Source of the DNA: Phycisphaerae bacterium
Lineage (GTDB): Bacteria > Planctomycetota > Phycisphaerae > UBA1845 > UTPLA1
Assembly (NCBI GenBank): GCA_030432035.1
Contig: JAUIHO010000001.1
Location: forward strand, 74-64,073
Reading direction: 5' to 3'
DNA: 64,000 nt
Part shown: one piece after another, positions 36,769 through 45,300 of the stretch
Layout of the letters: every line of letters starts with the position of its first letter
How positions within the stretch are numbered: position 1 is the stretch's first letter
The notes under the pieces: generated by a model
The model's input: only the letters and a program-made list of their open reading frames with translations
Told to the model about the DNA's origin: nothing
The model's database searches: none
Made by a program: the position numbers and the translations under genes

Positions 36769-36867
36769 TGCTTTTACTATTGAACCGCAGCGTCGCGCTT
36801 GGTATTCTCAGCAATTCATCGGTTGCGATCGCCAGCGTCAACATCTATCTCGCCAACGGGCTGCGGC

Positions 36868-38640
36868 ATGAGTGCGACGGACAAACCATCCAAGATTTAC
36901 CTCGACGAGCTAATCGCCGGTCGCGCTGCCGAGTTCTATCGTTACGTGCGCCGTGTCGATTCGCCGTCGCTGTTGCAATATGTCGTCGAACGCTGGAAGC
37001 AGGCACCAGCCGATTGGGCGCGGACGCAAGCGATAGCCTATTTTGACGAGCCGCTGGATTGCCCCGGTCATGAGTTGGTCGTCAAACGCCTGTTCAAAGA
37101 CGCGGAAGAGCGCGGCGATGACGAGGTGTTGGCCGCCTGCACGGTCGCCTTCGATCGGTTGGTGCGGCGCAAGCGACGGCGCGGATATCGATACGATCCG
37201 ACTTCGCAACAATTTGCGCAACAAGAATATCTCGCCAGCCCGCGCGATCAAATCCCTCACCTGCCGAAGGATAAAGGCAGTCGCTGGGCCGGTGTCGATA
37301 CGGCATCTTACGTTGCCTATTTCAATACGAAGGCCAGCCGCCTGTTTAGCTATCGCACGCGTTATTACCTGCGGCGGCGCGCGTGGCGGTATTACCGACG
37401 CATGGGGTATCAACATCCCGACCGATACGTGCGGTCTGTCGCGACGTTTCTACAGCGGTACAGGGACAGCGATTTTGCGAAAGGCGAGAATATTCTCGAC
37501 AATTGGTCGATGCTGCATGCGTGTTACTTCCACCACGACGCGCTGGAGTTCAGTGATACAAAGGCCAAATTGGTTGAAGGCCACTCGCTAGCCGAGTTAA
37601 CGCCCGCCCCCTATCACGATGCGCTGTGGCGACAGACCGAAGCGTTCGATGTGCTCATCGAATTGTTGGGCACCGCCGAGAGCAGCCTTGTTCGCCTGTG
37701 GGCATTGGAATATCTCAATCAACACCATCGCGCATTGGTTTCATCGCTGACGCCGCAACGTCTAATGCCGCTATTGAACCATGCGGACGAGCGCGTGCAG
37801 AACTTCGCGGCGGAAGCGTTCTCGCAATTAGAGAATCTTGGCAGCCTTGGTATCGACGATTGGCTCGCACTTTTGAAGCTGTCGAGCATTAGCACGCTAA
37901 CGTTAATTTGCGATGCCATGCGTAAGCACGTCGCATCGGATCGGCTCGATCAGCAGCAATTGATCGAACTGGCCTGCGCCCGGCCCGACCCTGTCGCGCG
38001 AATGGGACTAGAGATGGTGCAGGCGCGCCATGCCGAACGCCCCTTCGCGCCGACCGAATTGTGTCGTTTGGCCCATGTCGAGTGTTTATCAATCGCGCGG
38101 CAAGCGGCCGAGTGGGTGCTGTCATTGCTCGGCACCGCATCAACATACGACGTCGAATGGGTATCGCCCTTCTTCGACAGCTTAAATCTGCCGACGCGTT
38201 TAGTAGCGATGGAGTGGCTTATGCCCAAAGCGCCCGGGTGGAACGACCCCGCATTGTGGGCGCGGCTCATCGAAACGCCTTTCGACGACGTGCGGCTCGG
38301 CGTTGTGCAGCGGATCGAACAACGCCTGCGATTGCCCGGCGGTGAAGTCGACCGCCTCGCGCCGGTCTGGACGGCTGTTATTCTTGGCGTACATCGTGGC
38401 GGTCGGCGCAAGCCCGATGCGTTGCGTCAAATCATCAAGGCGATGATCGCGGACCCTGCGCATGTCGAACGATTGTTACCGATCGTGGCCGTTGCCGTTC
38501 GATCCATTCGCGCACCCGAGCGCCGCGCGGCCCTTGCGGCCCTTGCACAGTTGATCGATGCCGCCCCGAACATGCAGGCGACGCTTCAACAAGCGATTCC
38601 GGAATTAACGTTGCCACCGATAGCCGCGGAGATGGCTTGA
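36868..38640 (+). CDS. HEAT/ARM-like helical-repeat protein, function unknown
   Basis: The start is taken at ATG 36868 (MSATDKP). The C-terminal two-thirds show recurring HEAT-like segments ('ERVQNFAAEAF', 'DPVARMGLEMV', 'PTRLVAMEWL', 'DDVRLGVVQRI', 'PERRAALAALAQL'). An Arg/Tyr-rich N-domain is present. Confidence 0.5.
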   Translation: MSATDKPSKIYLDELIAGRAAEFYRYVRRVDSPSLLQYVVERWKQAPADWARTQAIAYFDEPLDCPGHELVVKRLFKDAEERGDDEVLAACTVAFDRLVRRKRRRGYRYDPTSQQFAQQEYLASPRDQIPHLPKDKGSRWAGVDTASYVAYFNTKASRLFSYRTRYYLRRRAWRYYRRMGYQHPDRYVRSVATFLQRYRDSDFAKGENILDNWSMLHACYFHHDALEFSDTKAKLVEGHSLAELTPAPYHDALWRQTEAFDVLIELLGTAESSLVRLWALEYLNQHHRALVSSLTPQRLMPLLNHADERVQNFAAEAFSQLENLGSLGIDDWLALLKLSSISTLTLICDAMRKHVASDRLDQQQLIELACARPDPVARMGLEMVQARHAERPFAPTELCRLAHVECLSIARQAAEWVLSLLGTASTYDVEWVSPFFDSLNLPTRLVAMEWLMPKAPGWNDPALWARLIETPFDDVRLGVVQRIEQRLRLPGGEVDRLAPVWTAVILGVHRGGRRKPDALRQIIKAMIADPAHVERLLPIVAVAVRSIRAPERRAALAALAQLIDAAPNMQATLQQAIPELTLPPIAAEMA

Positions 38641-40346
38641 TGCAGGTGCAGACCGCCTATTTTGGAAGCAGTGCCATTCGCCAAGCCGCCGGCGGTCGCG
38701 TTCTGCAATTCGCACCCGATCTGTCGCGCGAGCGCGTCGGTTTTGATGCCCCGCTGAAAGACCCCGTCCGTTTTCGCGAAGCCATCAGCGCCTTGCACGA
38801 TGTGGTGATCAACGACCTGCGCTTTAAACCGCGCGATAAGTCGGCTTATGAAGCATGGAAAGTTCAACAACGCGAGCGCGAATCTCAAATTCGTAGCGCC
38901 GCCTATATGGATGTGAAGAAAACCCTCGATGCGCGCGTCGGTCAGCCGATACCGGCGGACCTCAAGCGCGAGTACGGTCGAGCACGCAAGCGCTATTGGT
39001 CGGCACGCCGCAGCTTAAACAACTGGCTGCGCGAAAATGATAAGGAACTGTGGCGGCAACTGATGCCGTACGACCCGGTGATTACCGTTGCCGATGACGT
39101 CGTGTTCTTCGAATGCTTCTCCGCCGACGAATCGAGCTACGGATGTTTGACGGTCGAGCGTGACGCGTGTTTCGGCGCATCGGATACCACCGAGTTCGGC
39201 ACGACCAACGTCGACTATTCGTGGGACTTGTATCATAACTTTCAGTCGCTGCGAACCTATCGCGAAACGCGCTTTGCCATCGACCCCGAAGGCTTTGCCT
39301 TGGCGACGCAGGATCACCCCGATTATCGCGAAGAAAAAATCGACCTGCCCGATGGTTGGTTGCGCGGTTTTATGCAACTGCAAGCGGCGATGTGTTTGCC
39401 GACGCGAAAGGTATCGCTCTCGGTTGGTGCGGTGTATTCGCTGCTGGCATTTCTGAAGCGACGCAAAGCACGCACGAGCCCGCGTGCGATTCGATTTGAA
39501 CTCACGCCGGGGCGGCCACCGCGACTGGTGTTGGAACCGTGGGAACAGCCGATCGATAGTTTCGGCACGATATACAACGGTCCGGCGGGCGACCCGCTGC
39601 GCATTTGGGGCCGCCGACGGCTGCTGGTGCTGTCGCGCGTGTTGCCTTTGGCCGACGGCGTGGATGTGTATTTATTGGGAACGGGTTTACCGAGCTTTTG
39701 GGTCGTGCGCATGGGCCCAATGCGATTGACGCTGGGGCTATCGGGCTGGACGACGAACGATTGGACGCGCGGTTCGGCGGTCGACATGTTGATGCCGCCG
39801 TCTCATCCGCAAGATTCGGATGTATCCCGCCTTGCCGACGTATTGCAAACCGAGCGTAGCGCGCCGTTGAGTGACTTGGCGTCGCGTGCCAGTCTCGCGC
39901 CCGATTTGGCTGCCGCCGGGCTCAACCAACTCGCATTGCGCGGTCAGGCGATATACGACCTCGATGCCGATCGATTTCGATGGCGTCAGGTACTACCGAT
40001 GGCGCTGAGCGAAAAAGAGTTGGGTCCGCCACATCCAGAACGTGTAGGCGCGCTTCAGATACTCGTGCGTCAGCAAGTGCAGGTTTCATCGGCACAGCGC
40101 GGACCGCGCGGTGGATTGATTCTCGTTGGCAAATCCGAAGGCAAACCGGTCGAAGCATTGATCGACGATGACGGTATCATTCGAAAAGGCAAATGTCTCT
40201 GCAGCTACTTCTATAAGTACGGCATTCGCAACGGTCCGTGTCGACATTTGCAAGCGTTACGCGATCAGCATACACGCACCGGCGACGGAGCCGGTACATC
40301 GACATTGAGTTGGTACGAACGAACGCGACAATGGGCCGGGCGCTGA
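38637..40346 (+). CDS. SWIM zinc-finger domain protein
   Basis: C-terminal CxCx12CxH ('CLCSYFYKYGIRNGPCRH', nt 40194-40247) matches the SWIM signature. It makes a 4-bp overlap with the upstream gene. Confidence 0.75.
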   Translation: MMQVQTAYFGSSAIRQAAGGRVLQFAPDLSRERVGFDAPLKDPVRFREAISALHDVVINDLRFKPRDKSAYEAWKVQQRERESQIRSAAYMDVKKTLDARVGQPIPADLKREYGRARKRYWSARRSLNNWLRENDKELWRQLMPYDPVITVADDVVFFECFSADESSYGCLTVERDACFGASDTTEFGTTNVDYSWDLYHNFQSLRTYRETRFAIDPEGFALATQDHPDYREEKIDLPDGWLRGFMQLQAAMCLPTRKVSLSVGAVYSLLAFLKRRKARTSPRAIRFELTPGRPPRLVLEPWEQPIDSFGTIYNGPAGDPLRIWGRRRLLVLSRVLPLADGVDVYLLGTGLPSFWVVRMGPMRLTLGLSGWTTNDWTRGSAVDMLMPPSHPQDSDVSRLADVLQTERSAPLSDLASRASLAPDLAAAGLNQLALRGQAIYDLDADRFRWRQVLPMALSEKELGPPHPERVGALQILVRQQVQVSSAQRGPRGGLILVGKSEGKPVEALIDDDGIIRKGKCLCSYFYKYGIRNGPCRHLQALRDQHTRTGDGAGTSTLSWYERTRQWAGR

Positions 40347-40385
40347 TGCGTGCCGCAGCCGCTTGCCGCATAACGACGAGCATAA

Positions 40386-40600
40386 GGGGGTAACCGATCA
40401 CCTGAGACCATCTTGCTGCGGCGTACCGCCGTGGTTGAACATGACTATCCATGCTTCCCCAAGGCCGTTGTTCGTATGGCCCGACGCGTATGTAGGTGCG
40501 TCGGCCATGACAAGCCGAGGCTTACGACGCACCTACATACGCGTCGGGCCTTGGTTAACGACCTCGGTCCGGAGATCTGAAGTCAGGTGATCGGCCCCCC
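40386..40600 (+). ncRNA. candidate retron msr-msd RNA
   Basis: There is a perfect 12-bp inverted repeat: a1 at 40394-40405 (CCGATCACCTGA) and a2 at 40583-40594 (TCAGGTGATCGG). It is extendable by GGGGG 40386-40390 / CCCCC 40595-40599 across a 3-nt bulge. The first unpaired base after a1 is G40406. A small hairpin lies at 40419-40431. A 26-bp perfect stem joins 40478-40503 and 40525-40550, with a 21-nt loop. The region ends 24 nt before the RT start. Confidence 0.55.
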
Positions 40601-40624
40601 ACTTTTTTGTTTAGGTAACGCGTC

Positions 40625-42241
40625 GTGGGATTGTTTGACTTTGTCAAAAAGCTGTTCGGCGGATCGGACGCCGGCACCGTCTGCCCGAGTTGCGGCACGC
40701 CTTATCGCGATGGCGCTCGCTACTGCGGACAGTGCAATCATCCGCGCGGAGTGCCCACATCGCGCCCCACGATTCCGCCGCCGGTCGCACGCCAACCCAA
40801 GGTGCAAAACCTGACCGGCCTCGATGCGCAGAAGTTTGAACCGATGACGACGGCCGATGCGAAGGCCACCATCAAAGAAGCCAGCACGCTGCGGTCGGCG
40901 TTTCTCGATCCGTTAACCGTCATTCCCGATCCAACGTTGCCGCGCATTCAAATTATCGATCGCACGATGGTCGGCCTTGGACTCATTTCGCCCGAAGAAC
41001 TCACGCACATCCACGAAGTCGGCCTGCAATACGCCGAGATGAAGGGCGATCTGTCGGTCGCGCGGGCGGCGGGCGAACGGGCGGTGCGACTGTCACGCGA
41101 AGAGCGCGCGGCGCGCAAACAGCAGAAGATCGAAGAGGCGCAGCGCCGACGGCAAGCGCGGGCCGAAGCCATCGCGCGACGCCGAGCGACGGATATCGTG
41201 TTTCTCGGCCGCGGTGTGTCGCGCGGGTTGGCCGATCGGCGCGCGAATGTTGAACGGCTGAAGGCAAACGACTTGCCGATTATCTCGTCGCCTGCCGAAT
41301 TGTCAGTGGCGATGAACATTCCGATCCCACGGCTGCGGTTCCTAGCATTTCATAGCGATGCGCCGCAACGCGTGCACTACGTCACGTTTACAGTACCAAA
41401 GAAGAGCGGCGGCACGCGGTTGTTGTCAGCACCGCATCAATCGCTGGCGACTGCTCAACAGTGGATATTGGAGAACATCCTGAGCAAGGTTTCGCCGCAC
41501 GATGCAGTGCATGGATTCGTGCCGGGGCGTTCGACGCTAACCAATGCCGAGCCGCACGTTGGCGCGGATACGGTCGTGAATATAGATTTGAAGAATTTCT
41601 TTCCGACGATCACGTTCGCGCGCGTGCTGGGCGTGTTTCGTGCGCTGGGTTACTCGCCCGCCGTCGCGACGATACTGGCATTGTTGTGCTCCGAAGCGCC
41701 GCGGCGCCCCATGAAGTACGACGGGCAAACGTATTACGCCGCCACCGGGCCGCGCGCTCTACCGCAAGGCGCTTGCACCAGCCCGGCGCTGTCGAACCTC
41801 GTTGCGCGTCGACTGGATCGGCGCATGCTTGGCATCGCGCAAAAACTCGGCTGGACGTACACGCGTTACGCCGACGATCTGTCTTTTTCGCAGCACGGTG
41901 AGTTGACTGCCAGCATTGGATACTTGCTAGCACGGATTCGACACATTGCGGACGACGAAGGCTTTTCGGTCAACGAAAAGAAGACGCGGGTGCAGCGCCG
42001 CAATCAGCAACAGTCGGTCACCGGCCTAGTCGTCAACGATCGTATAAACGTGCCGCGCAAAACGATTCGCCGCTTGCGCGCTATCCTGCATCGCGCGCAA
42101 CGCGAAGGATTGGCCGCGCAGAATCGCGACAACCATCCGCACTTTGAAGCATGGGTACGTGGCATGATCGCTTACATTTCGATGTCAAACCCCGAAGCAG
42201 CGCAACGACTGCGAACGGAATTTGATAAAATTGGAAGGTAG
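40625..42241 (+). CDS. retron-type reverse transcriptase with N-terminal zinc-ribbon/coiled-coil extension
   Basis: It has a GTG start. RT motifs are present: 'NIDLKNFFPTIT', 'LPQGACTSPALSNL', 'YADD' (41867-41878) and the retron-typical 'SVTGLVVN' (VTG at 42017-42025). The pre-RT helix 'RLRFLAFH...YVTFTVPKKSGGTR' is also present. Residues 1-215 contain 'CPSCG...CGQC' and an Arg/Glu-rich helix. Confidence 0.85.
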   Translation: MGLFDFVKKLFGGSDAGTVCPSCGTPYRDGARYCGQCNHPRGVPTSRPTIPPPVARQPKVQNLTGLDAQKFEPMTTADAKATIKEASTLRSAFLDPLTVIPDPTLPRIQIIDRTMVGLGLISPEELTHIHEVGLQYAEMKGDLSVARAAGERAVRLSREERAARKQQKIEEAQRRRQARAEAIARRRATDIVFLGRGVSRGLADRRANVERLKANDLPIISSPAELSVAMNIPIPRLRFLAFHSDAPQRVHYVTFTVPKKSGGTRLLSAPHQSLATAQQWILENILSKVSPHDAVHGFVPGRSTLTNAEPHVGADTVVNIDLKNFFPTITFARVLGVFRALGYSPAVATILALLCSEAPRRPMKYDGQTYYAATGPRALPQGACTSPALSNLVARRLDRRMLGIAQKLGWTYTRYADDLSFSQHGELTASIGYLLARIRHIADDEGFSVNEKKTRVQRRNQQQSVTGLVVNDRINVPRKTIRRLRAILHRAQREGLAAQNRDNHPHFEAWVRGMIAYISMSNPEAAQRLRTEFDKIGR

Positions 42242-42355
42242 AATGCTGGCTGATTCCTGTGCAAGTATTTGAGCCGCAACCAAGGAAGCCTGCGGACTTT
42301 CACAGTCTATTAGCCGGTGCCACAGCGCGACTGTTGCTCTCAATCCTGAAGCGGT

Positions 42356-45300
42356 CTAGTCGTCCGATTCCCACAATCGCAATACGCAAGGTCTTTTTCC
42401 ATAGGCCCCGCTGCCCGTGGCAATCACGCTACCATCGGGGCTTATGCCGACGGCCCAGATGTTCGATTCGTCACCGCGCAGTTTGAGAACGATTTGGCCA
42501 GAGGCAACGTCGGTTAACACGATCGCGCGGTCGTGTGAGCTTGAGACCAACCGTGTGCCATCGGGGGTAAATGCCAGATCGAGAACGTCCGTCGCGTGCG
42601 CGGGTATGGTTCGCAACGTCGCCAACGAAACCGCATTTAGCAAATGTATCTCACCCGATGCAAGGCCGACGGCAATTGCAGCACCGCGCGGCGAGATTGC
42701 CATCGCTTGAATGGACTTGCCGAAGTCATGGCGGCGAACGATCGAGCCCGCTGCCATGTCCCATTCGATTAGCGACTGATCCTGCGATGCTGAATACAGT
42801 CGCGTGCCATCCGGTGTGAACGACAGCTTCCAAATCCAACCTTGGTGGCCGCTTAGTTCGCGAATGAGCTTGCCCGACTGCGTATCCCACAGCAACACCC
42901 GTTGATCGATGCCGCCGGAAGCAACGCGTCTACCATCGGGGCTAAATACGGCGGTGTGTACGGCGTGTTCGTGTGACGCGAGCGCGTGTTTCAATTTTAA
43001 CGTTTCGGCATCCCACAATCCGACGACACCGGATCGGCCTGCCGTCGCAATCAGCTTGCCATCGGGAGAGAAGCAAACATCCTGAAAGCCGCGCGGCAGC
43101 TCTTCCAATTCGCCCAACTGCAAACGTTGAGCGACATCCCAGATACGCACGGCGCCATCGAATGACGCCGTTGCGATGTGCTTACCATTCGGGCTGACGT
43201 CGATCCCTCGGATCAACCGTTGATGGGCGACGATGGATTCTTTTCGCGTGAGTGCGTTTACATCCCATGTCCTAATCGTGGCATCCCAAGATGCCGTAAC
43301 GAGATGCGAACCGTTGGGTGTGAAGTTTACACGGCCCACTGCCGCATCGTGGCCATGGGCGATGCTGATGTTGCGATGCGAATCGACGTCGTAAATTCGG
43401 AGCGTTTTATCGACACCTGTCGTGGCGATCAATGTTCCATCTGGCGACCATGCGACGGCGAGTGCACCGCCTTCATGGTCTGCGATCTCCCATAACAGCG
43501 TTCCCGCGTCGACGTCAAAGATCTTAACGTTGCCGTTGTTGGAACTGATCGCCAACTGCTTTCCGTTATGGGAAAACGAAACACCCGTAATGCCACCGTT
43601 CTTTTCTTTATGAAGTGCCTCCACAGTCCCGGTAGCTGTATCGAGAAGTAGCGTCGCGCCATCTTCGGTACCGATGGCCATACGTGATTCGTTTGGGCTA
43701 AGCGCCAATCGACACGCGTTACCCTCTGTCACACGATGGGCAAACTGCACAGTGCCTGTTTCAACATCCCACGCGCGCACGAATCCATCATCCGCCGACG
43801 CCCACACGCGCTCGCCCTGTCGATCTAGCAAAACGGCTTGCATCCACGCCCCTTCCACCCGCGCTTCGAAGATAGGAAGATCAAGTTCGGGCGTTCGATA
43901 AGCTCGCACTAAATCGTCGCCGCAAGCTGCAATCAGATCACCATCCGCGCTGACATGCACATCGTTAACCACGTATTCAAAATTGGGGCTGCGCGCGACA
44001 ACCTGACCGCTCGCAATGTCCCAAAGCTGGATGCATCGATCGTCGGCAGGGTATGCACCTGCCGCCGTCGCTAACCATCGGCCATCAGCGCTAAGCGACG
44101 CCGCGCGGATGGGGCCTGTCGCTCCACGCAAGGTGCGTTCGCTGCGATCGAGTTGACGCTTTAGATAGTGGTACTCCCAATTGCGCAAGTGCTCAGGCAC
44201 ACCCGCGAGCCGCAAGCGCGCGGCGGGCACGCCATGGGCGCGCAGCTCGGCATCGGCGGCCACGATATTGGCGACGTAAGATTGAAACTCCGCTTCGGCA
44301 CGCTGTTGGTCGGCCACCTTCCGCGCGGCGGCTTCCGACGCTTGCGCGCGTTCGGCGTCGCGTGCGCGACGTTCGGCGCGCTGCTCCGCTTTGCCGGTCT
44401 TCCAGGCAAAGCGCAAACTAATCCCGGTCGCGGCGATCAACGTCAGCACCACCAGCACCAACGACGCCAACACACTCGGATGTCGCCGCGCGAACAGTTT
44501 GAGTTGATAACCGGTCGAAGGCCTCCGCGCTTCAATCGGCAACTTCTCAAGGTAATGTTGCAGGTCGCGGCTCAGGTCGGCGGCGGATTGGTAGCGACGC
44601 TCGGACGTTTTCTCCAACGCCTTGCCCGCAATCGTTTCGATATCGCCTCGCAACTTTGGATTATTTCGGCCCAAACGCTGCGGCGGTTGCCGCTTGATGG
44701 CTTCCGCAATTGACAAGATCGCCGAGCTTTTGAAATCGTATGGCAAATGCCCCGTCAACAGCTCGAACAACACAACACCCAACGCATACACGTCGGTGCG
44801 AATGTCGATGCGATGCGGGTCGGCATCGAGTTGCTCCGGGCTCATGTATTGCGGCGTGCCGATCAACTGCCCCGCTTGCGTGTTGAAATCGAGCGTTAGC
44901 AAATCGCGATCGACGGCACGCGCGACGCCGAAATCAATCACCTTTAATTGACCATCGCGGCCAACGAGAATGTTGCTCGGCTTCAGATCGCGATGAATGA
45001 TGCCATGTTGATGACCGTGATGGACGGCTGCACACGCATCGATGATGAGACGCACGCGTTCGTCAATCCCCAGTTGATGCTGGTCGGCATACTGCGTCAC
45101 CGGAATCGCATCAGGCACCAATTCCATCGCAAAGAAATGCATCGACGCCGCACCATGCTGATGCGTGCCCGCTTCATAAATCTGTGCGATATTCGGGTGC
45201 TGCAGGTGCGCTAAGATATCCGCCTCGTAGCGAAACCGGCGCGCGGCCGATGCCGTTTCGTCGGTCGAGCGCAACAGCTTTAGCGCGACGCGACGGCGTG

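What the first reader, a model, noticed from the sequence alone, without database searches (positions are those of the whole stretch)
40625..41269. Unusual 215-aa N-terminal extension on the retron RT: zinc ribbon, Pro-rich linker, Arg/Glu coiled coil
Seen in sequence:
- Residues 20-38 read CPSCGTPYRDGARYCGQC (nt 40682-40738), a four-Cys zinc-ribbon signature.
- A Pro-rich linker follows (PTSRPTIPPPVARQP).
- A small globular stretch comes next.
- A highly charged helix follows (REERAARKQQKIEEAQRRRQARAEAIARRR).
- The Ec86-like region then begins at about aa 215.

Established knowledge: E. coli retron RTs are about 320 aa. Myxobacterial retron RTs (for example Mx162, 485 aa) carry N-terminal extensions of unknown function.

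Inference: a zinc-ribbon-bearing extension could be a nucleic-acid or protein sensor or an effector-like module fused to the RT. The intact Cys ligand pattern also supports the GTG at 40625 as the true start.
Basis: partly seen in the sequence, partly recalled or inferred. Interest (0 to 1): 0.6.

Follow-up and report, generated by a model that had tools for sequence, protein, structure and literature searches.

The report
Membrane-anchor-like N-terminus on retron RT
The 215-residue N-terminal extension of this retron reverse transcriptase is real and translated; most of it is the known but unexplained extension of the Mx162-type (type XIII) family, the zinc ribbon is an optional insert, and the most telling part is a short N-terminal helix that looks like a membrane anchor.

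Summary
Observation confirmed. The extension is under strong purifying selection: 27 synonymous against 3 non-synonymous codon changes versus a 96% relative.

The gene is the RT of a type XIII retron (HEAT/ARM + SWIM + ncRNA + RT), the Mx162/Mx65 family. Its N-terminal extension is known in the literature as "function unknown".

- **aa ~107-215** (end of the helical domain, 47-residue basic helix, TDIVFLGRGVS segment) are homologous to the extension of all type XIII RTs sampled.
- **aa 1-63** are specific to one monophyletic subclade found in Planctomycetota, Verrucomicrobiota, Polyangia and a few others.
- **The zinc ribbon** occurs in only about 25% of that subclade and was gained or lost at least 13 times, so it is accessory.
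- **The constant element** is the first 12 residues, MGLFDFVKKLFGG. This is an amphipathic helix resembling the MinD and MinE membrane-targeting sequences. In at least 6 independent lineages it is replaced by 1-4 transmembrane helices followed by Arg clusters.

Best reading (about 0.6): a peripheral membrane tether for the retron complex. No experiment supports this, and a HEAT/ARM-docking peptide remains a rival. This is a new variant of a known kind.

The parts
40625..42241 (+). Type XIII retron reverse transcriptase, 538 aa, GTG start
   Evidence: ORF. PADLOC RT_XIII 3.5e-162. Pfam RVT_1 at aa 257-468. YADD at aa 415-418 is invariant. Ec86 RT aligns to aa 208-491.
40628..40663 (+). N-terminal amphipathic helix GLFDFVKKLFGG (aa 2-13), candidate membrane-targeting sequence
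   Evidence: AF2 helix aa 3-10. Hydrophobic moment 0.64 against a background mean of 0.32 and 95th percentile of 0.63. Family consensus [GM]-L-[FL]-[DR]-[LF]-[LI]-[RK]-x-L-F-G-G in 127 relatives. Resembles E. coli MinD MTS KGFLKRLFGG and MinE residues 2-12. Sub-threshold Pfam hit to the Aurein-like peptide family. Replaced by TM helices in at least 6 lineages.
40682..40744 (+). Zinc ribbon C20-x2-C23-x11-C35-x2-C38 (Pfam match aa 20-40), optional module
   Evidence: Pfam PF13240, E 8e-6 to 2.9e-6, just over the cut-off. AF2 strands with pLDDT about 88. Present in 34 of 133 subclade members, with at least 13 state changes.
40745..40822 (+). Pro-rich disordered linker (aa 41-66)
   Evidence: pLDDT below 50 for aa 47-66. 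Length and sequence vary between relatives. 6 Pro in aa 43-66.
40823..41050 (+). Small helical domain (aa 67-142) with motifs GLDxxKFxP and IP..LPRIxxIDRxMVGxGL....L..IH..G
   Evidence: AF2 helices with pLDDT 70-89. Invariant I100 P101 R107 I111 G119 L126 I129 H130 G133. Found only in this RT family among 1.8 billion representatives. No PDB or BFVD fold match. Its C-terminal part from R107 aligns with the group B motif ILEEMIRLGFW.
41051..41191 (+). 47-residue Arg-rich basic helix (aa 143-189)
   Evidence: AF2 single helix, pLDDT 89-95. 15 R+K against 6 D+E. Covered by the PADLOC RT_XIII profile from position 47. Aligned with group B RTs.
41192..41269 (+). Conserved pre-RT segment DIVFLGRGVSRGLADRR... 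(aa 190-215)
   Evidence: Invariant L194 G195 R196 G197 S199 L202. pLDDT 91-95. Shared with group B type XIII RTs.
40384..40604 (+). Retron ncRNA (msr/msd): a1/a2 inverted repeats 40384-40405 and 40583-40604, with a 26-bp perfect hairpin 40478-40550
   Evidence: Repeats. Fold energy -150 kcal/mol, z = -8.3. It ends 20 nt before the RT start. No Rfam family matches.
38637..40346 (+). SWIM-domain partner protein (569 aa)
   Evidence: PADLOC SWIM_XIII 7e-181. Homologues lie next to the RT in 61 of 80 genome loci. No TM segment.
36868..38640 (+). HEAT/ARM-repeat partner protein (590 aa from the ATG at 36868)
   Evidence: PADLOC HEAT-ARM_XIII 2.7e-194. 590-aa orthologues are called in L001 and L003. 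This family was detected only in loci whose RT belongs to the long-extension subclade (24 loci: 20 with the helix, 1 with a TM helix, 3 with cut or unclear N-termini). No TM segment.

Best explanation
The 215-aa extension is a translated, composite N-terminal region of a type XIII (Mx162-family) retron reverse transcriptase. It has two layers.

(1) aa ~107-215 (probably from about aa 64) is the ancestral family-wide extension. It comprises a small helical domain, a 47-residue Arg-rich helix and the conserved TDIVFLGRGVS segment. I infer that it is a structural platform that holds the long msr/msd nucleic acid and/or the SWIM and HEAT partners.

(2) aa 1-63 is an addition specific to one monophyletic subclade. 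It comprises an N-terminal amphipathic helix (GLFDFVKKLFGG) on a flexible Pro-rich tether. The helix most likely lies in the cytoplasmic face of the inner membrane, as the MinD and MinE targeting helices do, and so tethers the RT, and with it the retron complex, peripherally to the membrane.

The four-Cys zinc ribbon just behind the helix is an optional knuckle in the tether, not the core of the function.

Shown here: coding status, start codon, family membership, domain layout, distribution of each module, and replacement of the helix by transmembrane segments. Inferred: membrane binding itself, and what membrane location achieves.
For: Real and coding:
- 27 synonymous against 3 non-synonymous changes in aa 1-215.
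- A stop codon two codons upstream of the GTG.
- Relatives start MGLFD at residue 1.

Family:
- RT_XIII, SWIM_XIII and HEAT-ARM_XIII hits.
- ncRNA with a1/a2 repeats and a 26-bp hairpin.
- The same operon in relatives.

Two layers:
- hhalign of the subclade profile against 24 short-extension RTs gives probability 100, aligned from R107 to the C-terminus.
- tblastn matches in other phyla start at aa 56-186.
- The helix-bearing clade is monophyletic: 155 of 188 rows, support 99.

Anchor:
- The helix is the one element present in nearly all complete subclade members: 133 helix, 10 TM, 12 short or ambiguous (manual curation). One 'short' case proved to be a mis-called start with the helix in frame upstream.
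- Hydrophobic moment is 0.64, family mean 0.62, against a background of 0.32.
- FVKKLFGG resembles the MinD MTS FLKRLFGG.
- M-G-L-F-D-F-V resembles MinE M-A-L-L-D-F-F.
- A weak Pfam hit to the aurein-like membrane-active peptides covers aa 2-13.
- The helix is replaced by 1-4 hydrophobic TM helices followed by Arg/Lys clusters. That topology puts the RT in the cytoplasm.
- There are 6 replacements on both FastTree and IQ-TREE trees, and a single TM clade is rejected (AU p = 1e-5).
- Two TM lineages keep both HEAT and SWIM partners.
- HEAT and SWIM have no TM segment, so the RT would be the only anchor.

Zinc ribbon optional: 34 of 133 members, at least 13 state changes.
Against: - There is no experimental evidence of membrane binding for any member.
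- The moment of the helix lies only at about the 95th percentile of 10-mers from the same proteins.
- The L-F-G-G end is conserved more strictly (G in 122 of 127) than lipid binding alone requires. That would also fit a specific protein contact.
- In some Pirellulaceae the helix is internal, behind an extra domain of about 100 aa.
- The helix appears on the tree together with a switch of partner, from WGR-HEAT to the shorter HEAT/ARM protein. Because this is a single event, it cannot separate the two explanations.
- AF2 gives the helix pLDDT about 73, which might reflect packing on the protein.
- The N-terminal classes were curated by hand, and the TM group was named after seeing a tree.
Confidence: 0.6

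Rival explanations
1. The N-terminal helix on its flexible tether is a docking peptide for the HEAT/ARM partner (helical-repeat proteins bind such peptides in their grooves). It couples the RT to the accessory protein; it is not a membrane anchor.
For: This HEAT/ARM family (about 590 aa, no WGR domain) was detected only in loci of the long-extension (helix) subclade. Loci whose RTs lack the helix have a 900-1020-aa WGR-HEAT protein instead. Mestre et al. report that type XIII RTs co-evolve with the HEAT/ARM accessory protein rather than with the SWIM protein. The L-F-G-G end of the motif is very strictly conserved.
Against: Non-homologous transmembrane helices replace the helix in at least 6 lineages. 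At least two of these keep the HEAT/ARM gene (L023, L089). A TM segment cannot sit in a soluble repeat groove. The co-occurrence with the partner switch is one evolutionary event and carries no statistical weight. The sequence resembles known lipid-binding helices.
Confidence: 0.2
2. One reading: the zinc-ribbon-bearing extension is a nucleic-acid or protein sensor, or an effector-like module fused to the RT, with the ribbon as its key element.
For: The ribbon is a credible four-Cys knuckle, and its Cys are kept wherever it occurs. Zinc ribbons often bind nucleic acids or proteins (general knowledge). The adjacent Arg-rich helix is strongly basic.
Against: Three quarters of the close orthologues lack the ribbon yet keep the same operon, helix, linker and domains. 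It was gained or lost at least 13 times. Its position relative to the helix varies (before it in L026, doubled in P0044). No catalytic or effector domain is detectable in aa 1-215.
Confidence: 0.1
3. The upstream 215 codons are not translated. The real protein is an Ec86-sized RT starting near aa 200-215, and the open frame upstream is fortuitous.
For: GTG start with no obvious strong Shine-Dalgarno sequence. Gene callers sometimes start relatives further downstream (P0061, P0023 and others).
Against: The 27:3 synonymous to non-synonymous ratio, with 27 of 30 changes at third positions, is lower protein divergence than in the RT core (3 of 215 against 16 of 323 residues). Invariant residues are spread through aa 100-215. 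The model of aa 67-215 is confident. Thousands of full-length relatives exist. The 'short' call P0061 has the helix in frame upstream.
Confidence: 0.02

Closest known systems
Type XIII retrons (Mestre et al. 2020, PMC7736814): Retron-Mxa1 (Mx162), Mxa2 (Mx65), Sau1 (Sa163), Nex2 (Ne144)
   Same: RT clade (PADLOC RT_XIII), SWIM-domain partner, HEAT/ARM-repeat partner, and a structured ncRNA directly upstream of the RT. The RT has an extended N-terminus of unknown function. aa ~107-215 align with the extension of the short-form family members.
   Different: The window's RT belongs to a subclade with an extra 60-150 aa at the N-terminus (amphipathic helix, tether, sometimes a zinc ribbon). That subclade pairs with a 590-aa HEAT/ARM protein without the WGR domain, whereas the short-form RTs pair with WGR-HEAT. 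Whether Mx162 itself carries the helix was not tested here.
Membrane-targeting sequences of E. coli MinD (C-terminal KGFLKRLFGG) and MinE (N-terminal residues 2-12)
   Same: A short terminal amphipathic helix with an aromatic/aliphatic face, adjacent Lys/Arg and a Gly-Gly end. FVKKLFGG compares with FLKRLFGG, and MGLFDFV with MALLDFF.
   Different: Not homologous proteins; this is a resemblance of a 12-residue motif only. Membrane binding is untested. In MinD the helix is C-terminal and its binding depends on ATP-driven dimerisation.
Pfam PF13240 Zn_Ribbon_1 (single zinc ribbon)
   Same: A CxxC-x11-CxxC knuckle pair with a score just above the gathering threshold, modelled as short strands.
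   Different: A 21-residue generic module with no assigned function. Here it sits in a variable linker of an RT and is dispensable in most orthologues.
Retron-Eco6 (Ec48), type IV retron with a two-TM effector
   Same: A retron system with a membrane-located component (Table 1 of PMC7736814).
   Different: There the membrane protein is a separate effector. Here the RT itself carries the putative anchor, and in some orthologues true TM helices.
Retron-Eco1 (Ec86) RT, solved structures 7v9x, 7v9u and 8qbk
   Same: The RT core: sequence match to aa 208-491 with E 2e-43, and fold match with target TM-score 0.82.
   Different: Ec86 RT (about 320 aa) has nothing corresponding to aa 1-207.

Membership tests
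Type XIII retron (Mestre 2020) | RT belongs to RT clade 10 / RT_XIII | tested here: met
   PADLOC RT_XIII is the best hit (3.5e-162, 538.6 bits). The next hit is RT_other at 5e-109.
Type XIII retron (Mestre 2020) | Adjacent gene for a SWIM zinc-finger protein (cluster 114) | tested here: met
   Gene 38637-40346: SWIM_XIII 7e-181. The CxCx12CxH motif is visible in the translation.
Type XIII retron (Mestre 2020) | Accessory HEAT/ARM-repeat protein upstream of the SWIM gene | tested here: met
   Gene 36868-38640: HEAT-ARM_XIII 2.7e-194. It overlaps the SWIM gene by 4 nt.
Type XIII retron (Mestre 2020) | Contiguous structured ncRNA (msr/msd) with terminal inverted repeats | tested here: met
   a1/a2 repeats at 40384-40405 and 40583-40604, and a 26-bp hairpin. 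Fold z = -8.3. No Rfam model exists to score it.
Type XIII retron (Mestre 2020) | Production of msDNA with a 2'-5' branch | not testable with these tools
   Needs experiment.
Retron RT (general) | YADD catalytic motif and the retron-specific VTG region | tested here: met
   Y415 A416 D417 D418 and V465 T466 G467 are invariant in 74 sequences.
Zinc ribbon (Pfam PF13240) | Two CxxC knuckles with a score over the gathering threshold | tested here: met
   25.9 bits (whole protein) and 27.3 bits (aa 1-215) against a cut-off of 25. The margin is small.
Zinc ribbon (Pfam PF13240) | Binds zinc | not testable with these tools
   Only inferred, from four conserved Cys and the modelled knuckle.
MinD/MinE-type membrane-targeting amphipathic helix (functional class, not a homology family) | Terminal helix with a segregated hydrophobic face and flanking basic residues | tested here: met
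   AF2 helix aa 3-10. Moment 0.64 against background 0.32. K8 and K9 on the polar face.
MinD/MinE-type membrane-targeting amphipathic helix (functional class, not a homology family) | Binds lipid bilayers and localises the protein to the membrane | not testable with these tools
   Indirect support only: orthologues carry TM helices in its place.

The most novel reading that the evidence does not exclude
The helix-bearing type XIII retrons are membrane-resident immune complexes in which the RT's N-terminal helix is more than an anchor. It resembles both MinD/MinE targeting helices and aurein-type membrane-active peptides. It would be the site of sensing or killing. One version has the complex surveying the inner membrane where phage DNA enters. 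Another has many tethered helices clustering on activation and damaging the membrane. The second version would explain why this retron type has no recognisable toxic effector.
Probability: 0.12. Interest if true: 0.8.

Novelty: new variant of a known kind. Interest (0 to 1): 0.5.

Why it matters
Type XIII is the oldest known retron family (Mx162, 1980s) and one of the most widespread. It is still the one with no known function and no solved structure, and reviews list its RT's N-terminal extension as unexplained.

This analysis splits the extension into an ancestral platform and a later tether. The tether ends in either a MinD-like helix or real transmembrane helices. That gives a concrete, cheap hypothesis: part of this family works at the membrane. 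It can be tested by localisation of a 20-residue tag, liposome binding and point mutants.

The analysis also tells annotators where these genes truly start, and shows that the zinc ribbon should not be used as a family marker.

Tried and rejected
- Rfam scan of 39500-43000: no family.
- Pfam and NCBIfam on aa 1-215 and aa 60-215 at relaxed thresholds: nothing beyond the zinc ribbon and a sub-threshold aurein-like hit.
- Fold search of the whole model: only RT cores.
- Fold search of the aa 60-150 domain model against PDB and BFVD: no match, best E above 3.
- Search of aa 60-145 against 1.8 billion representatives for the domain outside RTs: 53 hits. All were members or fragments of this RT family except five repetitive proteins (P0123, P0127, P0137, P0159, P0167), whose matches are short repeated stretches and which I judged spurious.
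- Is the N-terminal motif a general sorting signal of this organism? No. A scan of all open frames of the 5.1-Mb genome found it at an N-terminus only in this RT.
- Comparison with the organism's own MinD tail: no MinD over the cut-off in this genome.
- Pfam on the extra ~100-aa domain of some relatives: no hit.
- Literature search for a membrane-anchored retron RT or a described helix: nothing relevant in the held library.
- Complex prediction of the helix with the HEAT/ARM protein: no tool offers it.
- My first hydrophobic-moment classifier was too crude, so I replaced it with motif-based and hand-curated classes.
Full report
**1. What is there.**

The + strand ORF 40625-42241 encodes 538 aa from a GTG.
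- CPSCGTPYRDGARYCGQC at aa 20-38 (nt 40682-40738);
- the Pro-rich stretch at aa 44-58;
- a stretch modelled as a small helical domain;
- the charged helix at aa 158-187.

The Ec86-like region starts at about aa 208. Ec86 RT residue 8 aligns to aa 208 with E 2e-43, and Pfam RVT_1 covers aa 257-468.

Pfam Zn_Ribbon_1 matches aa 20-40 just above its gathering score: 25.9 to 27.3 bits against 25.

An AlphaFold2 model built on 74 sequences has mean pLDDT 89. It gives:
- a short helix at aa 3-10;
- four short strands at aa 19-40 (pLDDT about 88);
- a disordered stretch at aa 47-66;
- a helical domain at aa 67-142;
- one uninterrupted 47-residue helix at aa 143-189;
- a confidently modelled extended segment leading into the RT.

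**2. It is coding and the start is right.**

- An in-frame TAA lies two codons upstream of the GTG (40616-40618), so no earlier start is possible.
- Relatives begin M-G-L-F-D at residue 1.
- Against a 96%-identical relative (L003), aa 1-215 show 27 synonymous and only 3 non-synonymous codon differences. Of 30 base changes, 27 are at the third position.
- The extension is more conserved at the protein level than the RT core (3 of 215 residues against 16 of 323).
- The 278-nt spacer upstream differs at only 6 positions. It folds into the retron ncRNA: a1/a2 repeats, a 26-bp perfect hairpin and a fold z-score of -8.3. It ends 20 nt before the GTG.

**3. What system it belongs to.**

PADLOC profiles identify the three genes:
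- RT_XIII (3.5e-162);
- SWIM_XIII (7e-181);
- HEAT-ARM_XIII (2.7e-194).

This is the type XIII retron of Mestre et al. 2020. That type contains the classical myxobacterial retrons Mx162, Mx65, Sa163 and Ne144. A 2019 review states that exactly these RTs have an extended N-terminal region of unknown function. The operon is syntenic in relatives. RT_XIII-like genes (E at most 1e-60) were found in 82 of 301 Planctomycetota genomes searched. An extension as such is therefore the family rule, not an oddity.

**4. The extension has two layers.**

A scan of one genome per species returned 80 loci from many phyla. I read the RT open frames.

- **Group B.** Cyanobacteria, Bacteroidota, Acidobacteriota, Archangium and others have RTs of 460-530 aa. 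They begin directly with M..QPRTRQELYDRIR..S.EE.ILEEMIRLGFWP, followed by a basic helix.
- **Group A.** Planctomycetota, Verrucomicrobiota, Polyangia/Sandaracinus, a Myxococcus sp., a Thermoanaerobaculia and a Sumerlaeia genome carry the longer form seen in the window.

Profile-profile alignment of group A (74 sequences) with group B (24 sequences) has probability 100. It runs from R107 of the window protein to the C-terminus, with IIDRTMVGLGLI aligned to ILEEMIRLGFW. tblastn matches to some distant members begin at aa 56-66.

So aa ~107-215, and probably from about aa 64, are the ancestral type XIII extension. aa 1-63 are a later addition.

On a tree of 188 RT bodies, with the N-terminal columns excluded, group A is one clade of 155 rows with support 99, nested among group B forms.

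The helical domain at aa 60-145 occurs nowhere outside this RT family among 1.8 billion representative proteins. The five hits in large or repetitive proteins are short repeated stretches that I judged spurious. It has no fold match in PDB or BFVD.

**5. The zinc ribbon is optional.**

- Only 30 of the 120 closest relatives have a CxxC...CxxC in the first 80 residues.
- Among 133 group A proteins with the N-terminal helix, 34 have it.
- It needs at least 13 changes of state on the tree. The mean for shuffled labels is 30, so it is clustered but repeatedly gained or lost.
- It can be doubled (P0044) or lie before the helix (L026).
- Where present, the four Cys are kept.

It is a credible zinc knuckle, but the family functions without it.

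**6. The constant element is the first dozen residues.**

Nearly every complete group A protein starts with [GM]-L-[FL]-[DR]-[LF]-[LI]-[RK]-x-L-F-G-G (127 examples aligned). In the window this is GLFDFVKKLFGG.

- Its helical hydrophobic moment is 0.64 and the family mean is 0.62. Ten-residue windows from the RT bodies of the same proteins average 0.32, with a 95th percentile of 0.63.
- The second half matches the E. coli MinD membrane-targeting sequence KGFLKRLFGG.
- The first half matches the MinE membrane-inserting helix A2 L3 L4 D5 F6 F7 L8.
- Pfam gives a sub-threshold hit (E 0.064) of aa 2-13 to 12 of the 13 positions of the aurein-like family of membrane-active peptides.
- In the window's own genome, this motif at an N-terminus is unique to the RT.

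**7. Comparative evidence for a membrane role.**

Ten group A proteins lack the helix and have hydrophobic transmembrane segments in its place.
- One TM followed by an Arg/Lys cluster: P0024, P0056, P0079, P0089, P0103, P0113, P0146 and L023.
- Three to four TMs: P0155 and P0172.

The positive cluster after the TM puts the RT in the cytoplasm.

These proteins sit at six separate places on both the FastTree and an IQ-TREE subset tree. A tree forcing them into one clade is rejected (lnL difference 208, AU p = 1e-5). The caveat is that I named the group after seeing a tree. The segments are not alike in sequence or number, which also argues for independent origins.

Two TM lineages (L023, L089) keep both partners. 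One (L090) has lost them.

Apparent 'short' proteins without helix or TM include at least one mis-called start: P0061 has MGFFDDVFGSFKRLFGG in frame upstream. Neither partner protein in the window has a TM-like segment.

**8. Mechanism proposed.**

Shown:
- the domain layout;
- the distribution of modules;
- the helix-to-TM exchanges.

Inferred:
- the helix lies in the cytoplasmic leaflet and, through the 25-150-residue Pro-rich tether, holds the RT-msDNA complex with its SWIM and HEAT partners at the inner membrane;
- the ancestral part (helical domain, Arg-rich helix with net charge about +9, TDIVFLGRGVS) is a platform for the unusually long msr/msd duplexes and/or the partners.

What membrane location achieves is open. 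Proximity to phage DNA entry and keeping a nuclease-like SWIM/DEDE protein away from the nucleoid are both speculation.

**9. Rival.**

The helix appears on the tree at the same point as a switch of partner. Group B loci have the 900-1020-aa WGR_XIII protein. Group A loci have the 590-aa HEAT-ARM protein without WGR. Mestre et al. found that the RT co-evolves with the HEAT/ARM protein. The helix could therefore be a docking peptide for the repeat protein.

Against this, TM replacements retain the HEAT gene. For it, the L-F-G-G end is conserved very strictly. I could not run a complex prediction.

**10. Novelty.**

The retron type and the existence of an N-terminal extension are known. I did not find any of the following in the held literature:
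- the dissection of the extension into an ancestral platform plus a clade-specific tether;
- the MinD/MinE-like helix;
- its repeated exchange for TM helices;
- the accessory status of the zinc ribbon.

This is a new variant of a known kind. An earlier follow-up in this scan had already called the adjacent ncRNA a type XIII retron RNA. My independent PADLOC and fold results agree.

**11. Limits.**

- N-terminal classes were hand-curated from regular-expression hits.
- Metagenomic gene calls have unreliable starts.
- The large tree is FastTree, with many weakly supported forks.
- The structure models could be inspected only through summary lines.

Noticed in passing
L016, L024, L028, L083 (Rhodopirellula baltica); L025, L029, L034-L036 (Polyangia): N-terminal 100-160 aa of the RT ORFs: An extra domain of about 100 aa (FTAxDIT..AR...H..VR..VH.LF..G.MG..Y.RS...PF.YH) is inserted in the N-terminal region. 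It lies before the amphipathic helix in Pirellulaceae and after it in Polyangia. It has no Pfam match.
   Followed up: partly
80 genome loci L008-L087; window 36868-38640: There is a partner switch inside type XIII. RTs of the long-extension (helix) subclade pair with a 590-aa HEAT-ARM protein (PDLC02922). RTs without the helix pair with a 900-1020-aa WGR-HEAT protein (PDLC02973). The SWIM partner is common to both.
   Followed up: partly
window 40550-40604; P0022, P0138, P0146, L014 N-termini: Gene callers often start these RTs inside the ncRNA. The spurious N-terminal peptide 'ALVNDLGPR.EV' recurs across distant relatives. This means the 3' part of the msd/a2 region is conserved at the nucleotide level across phyla.
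   Followed up: no
L088 1111-1500 (P0061): The called 485-aa 'short' RT is a mis-called start. An ATG with MGFFDDVFGSFKRLFGG and a Pro-rich linker lies in frame upstream. The 767-nt 'gap' after the SWIM gene is mostly coding.
   Followed up: yes
L090 (P0024 locus): A TM-anchored RT of this family has no SWIM or HEAT gene within 6 kb upstream. Uma2 and PDDEXK-like genes sit there instead. It is possibly a decayed or rearranged retron.
   Followed up: partly
window 36799-36868: The longest ORF of the HEAT/ARM gene starts at TTG 36799 (613 aa). Orthologues are called at 590 aa, which matches the ATG at 36868.
   Followed up: partly
whole genome G000: No canonical MinD (TIGR01968 over cut-off) was found in this 92%-complete genome. 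Only ParA/MinD-superfamily relatives below the cut-off were seen.
   Followed up: no
P0044; L026: There are zinc-ribbon variants in the tether. P0044 has two ribbons in tandem, and the Thermoanaerobaculia genome (L026) has a ribbon placed before the amphipathic helix.
   Followed up: no
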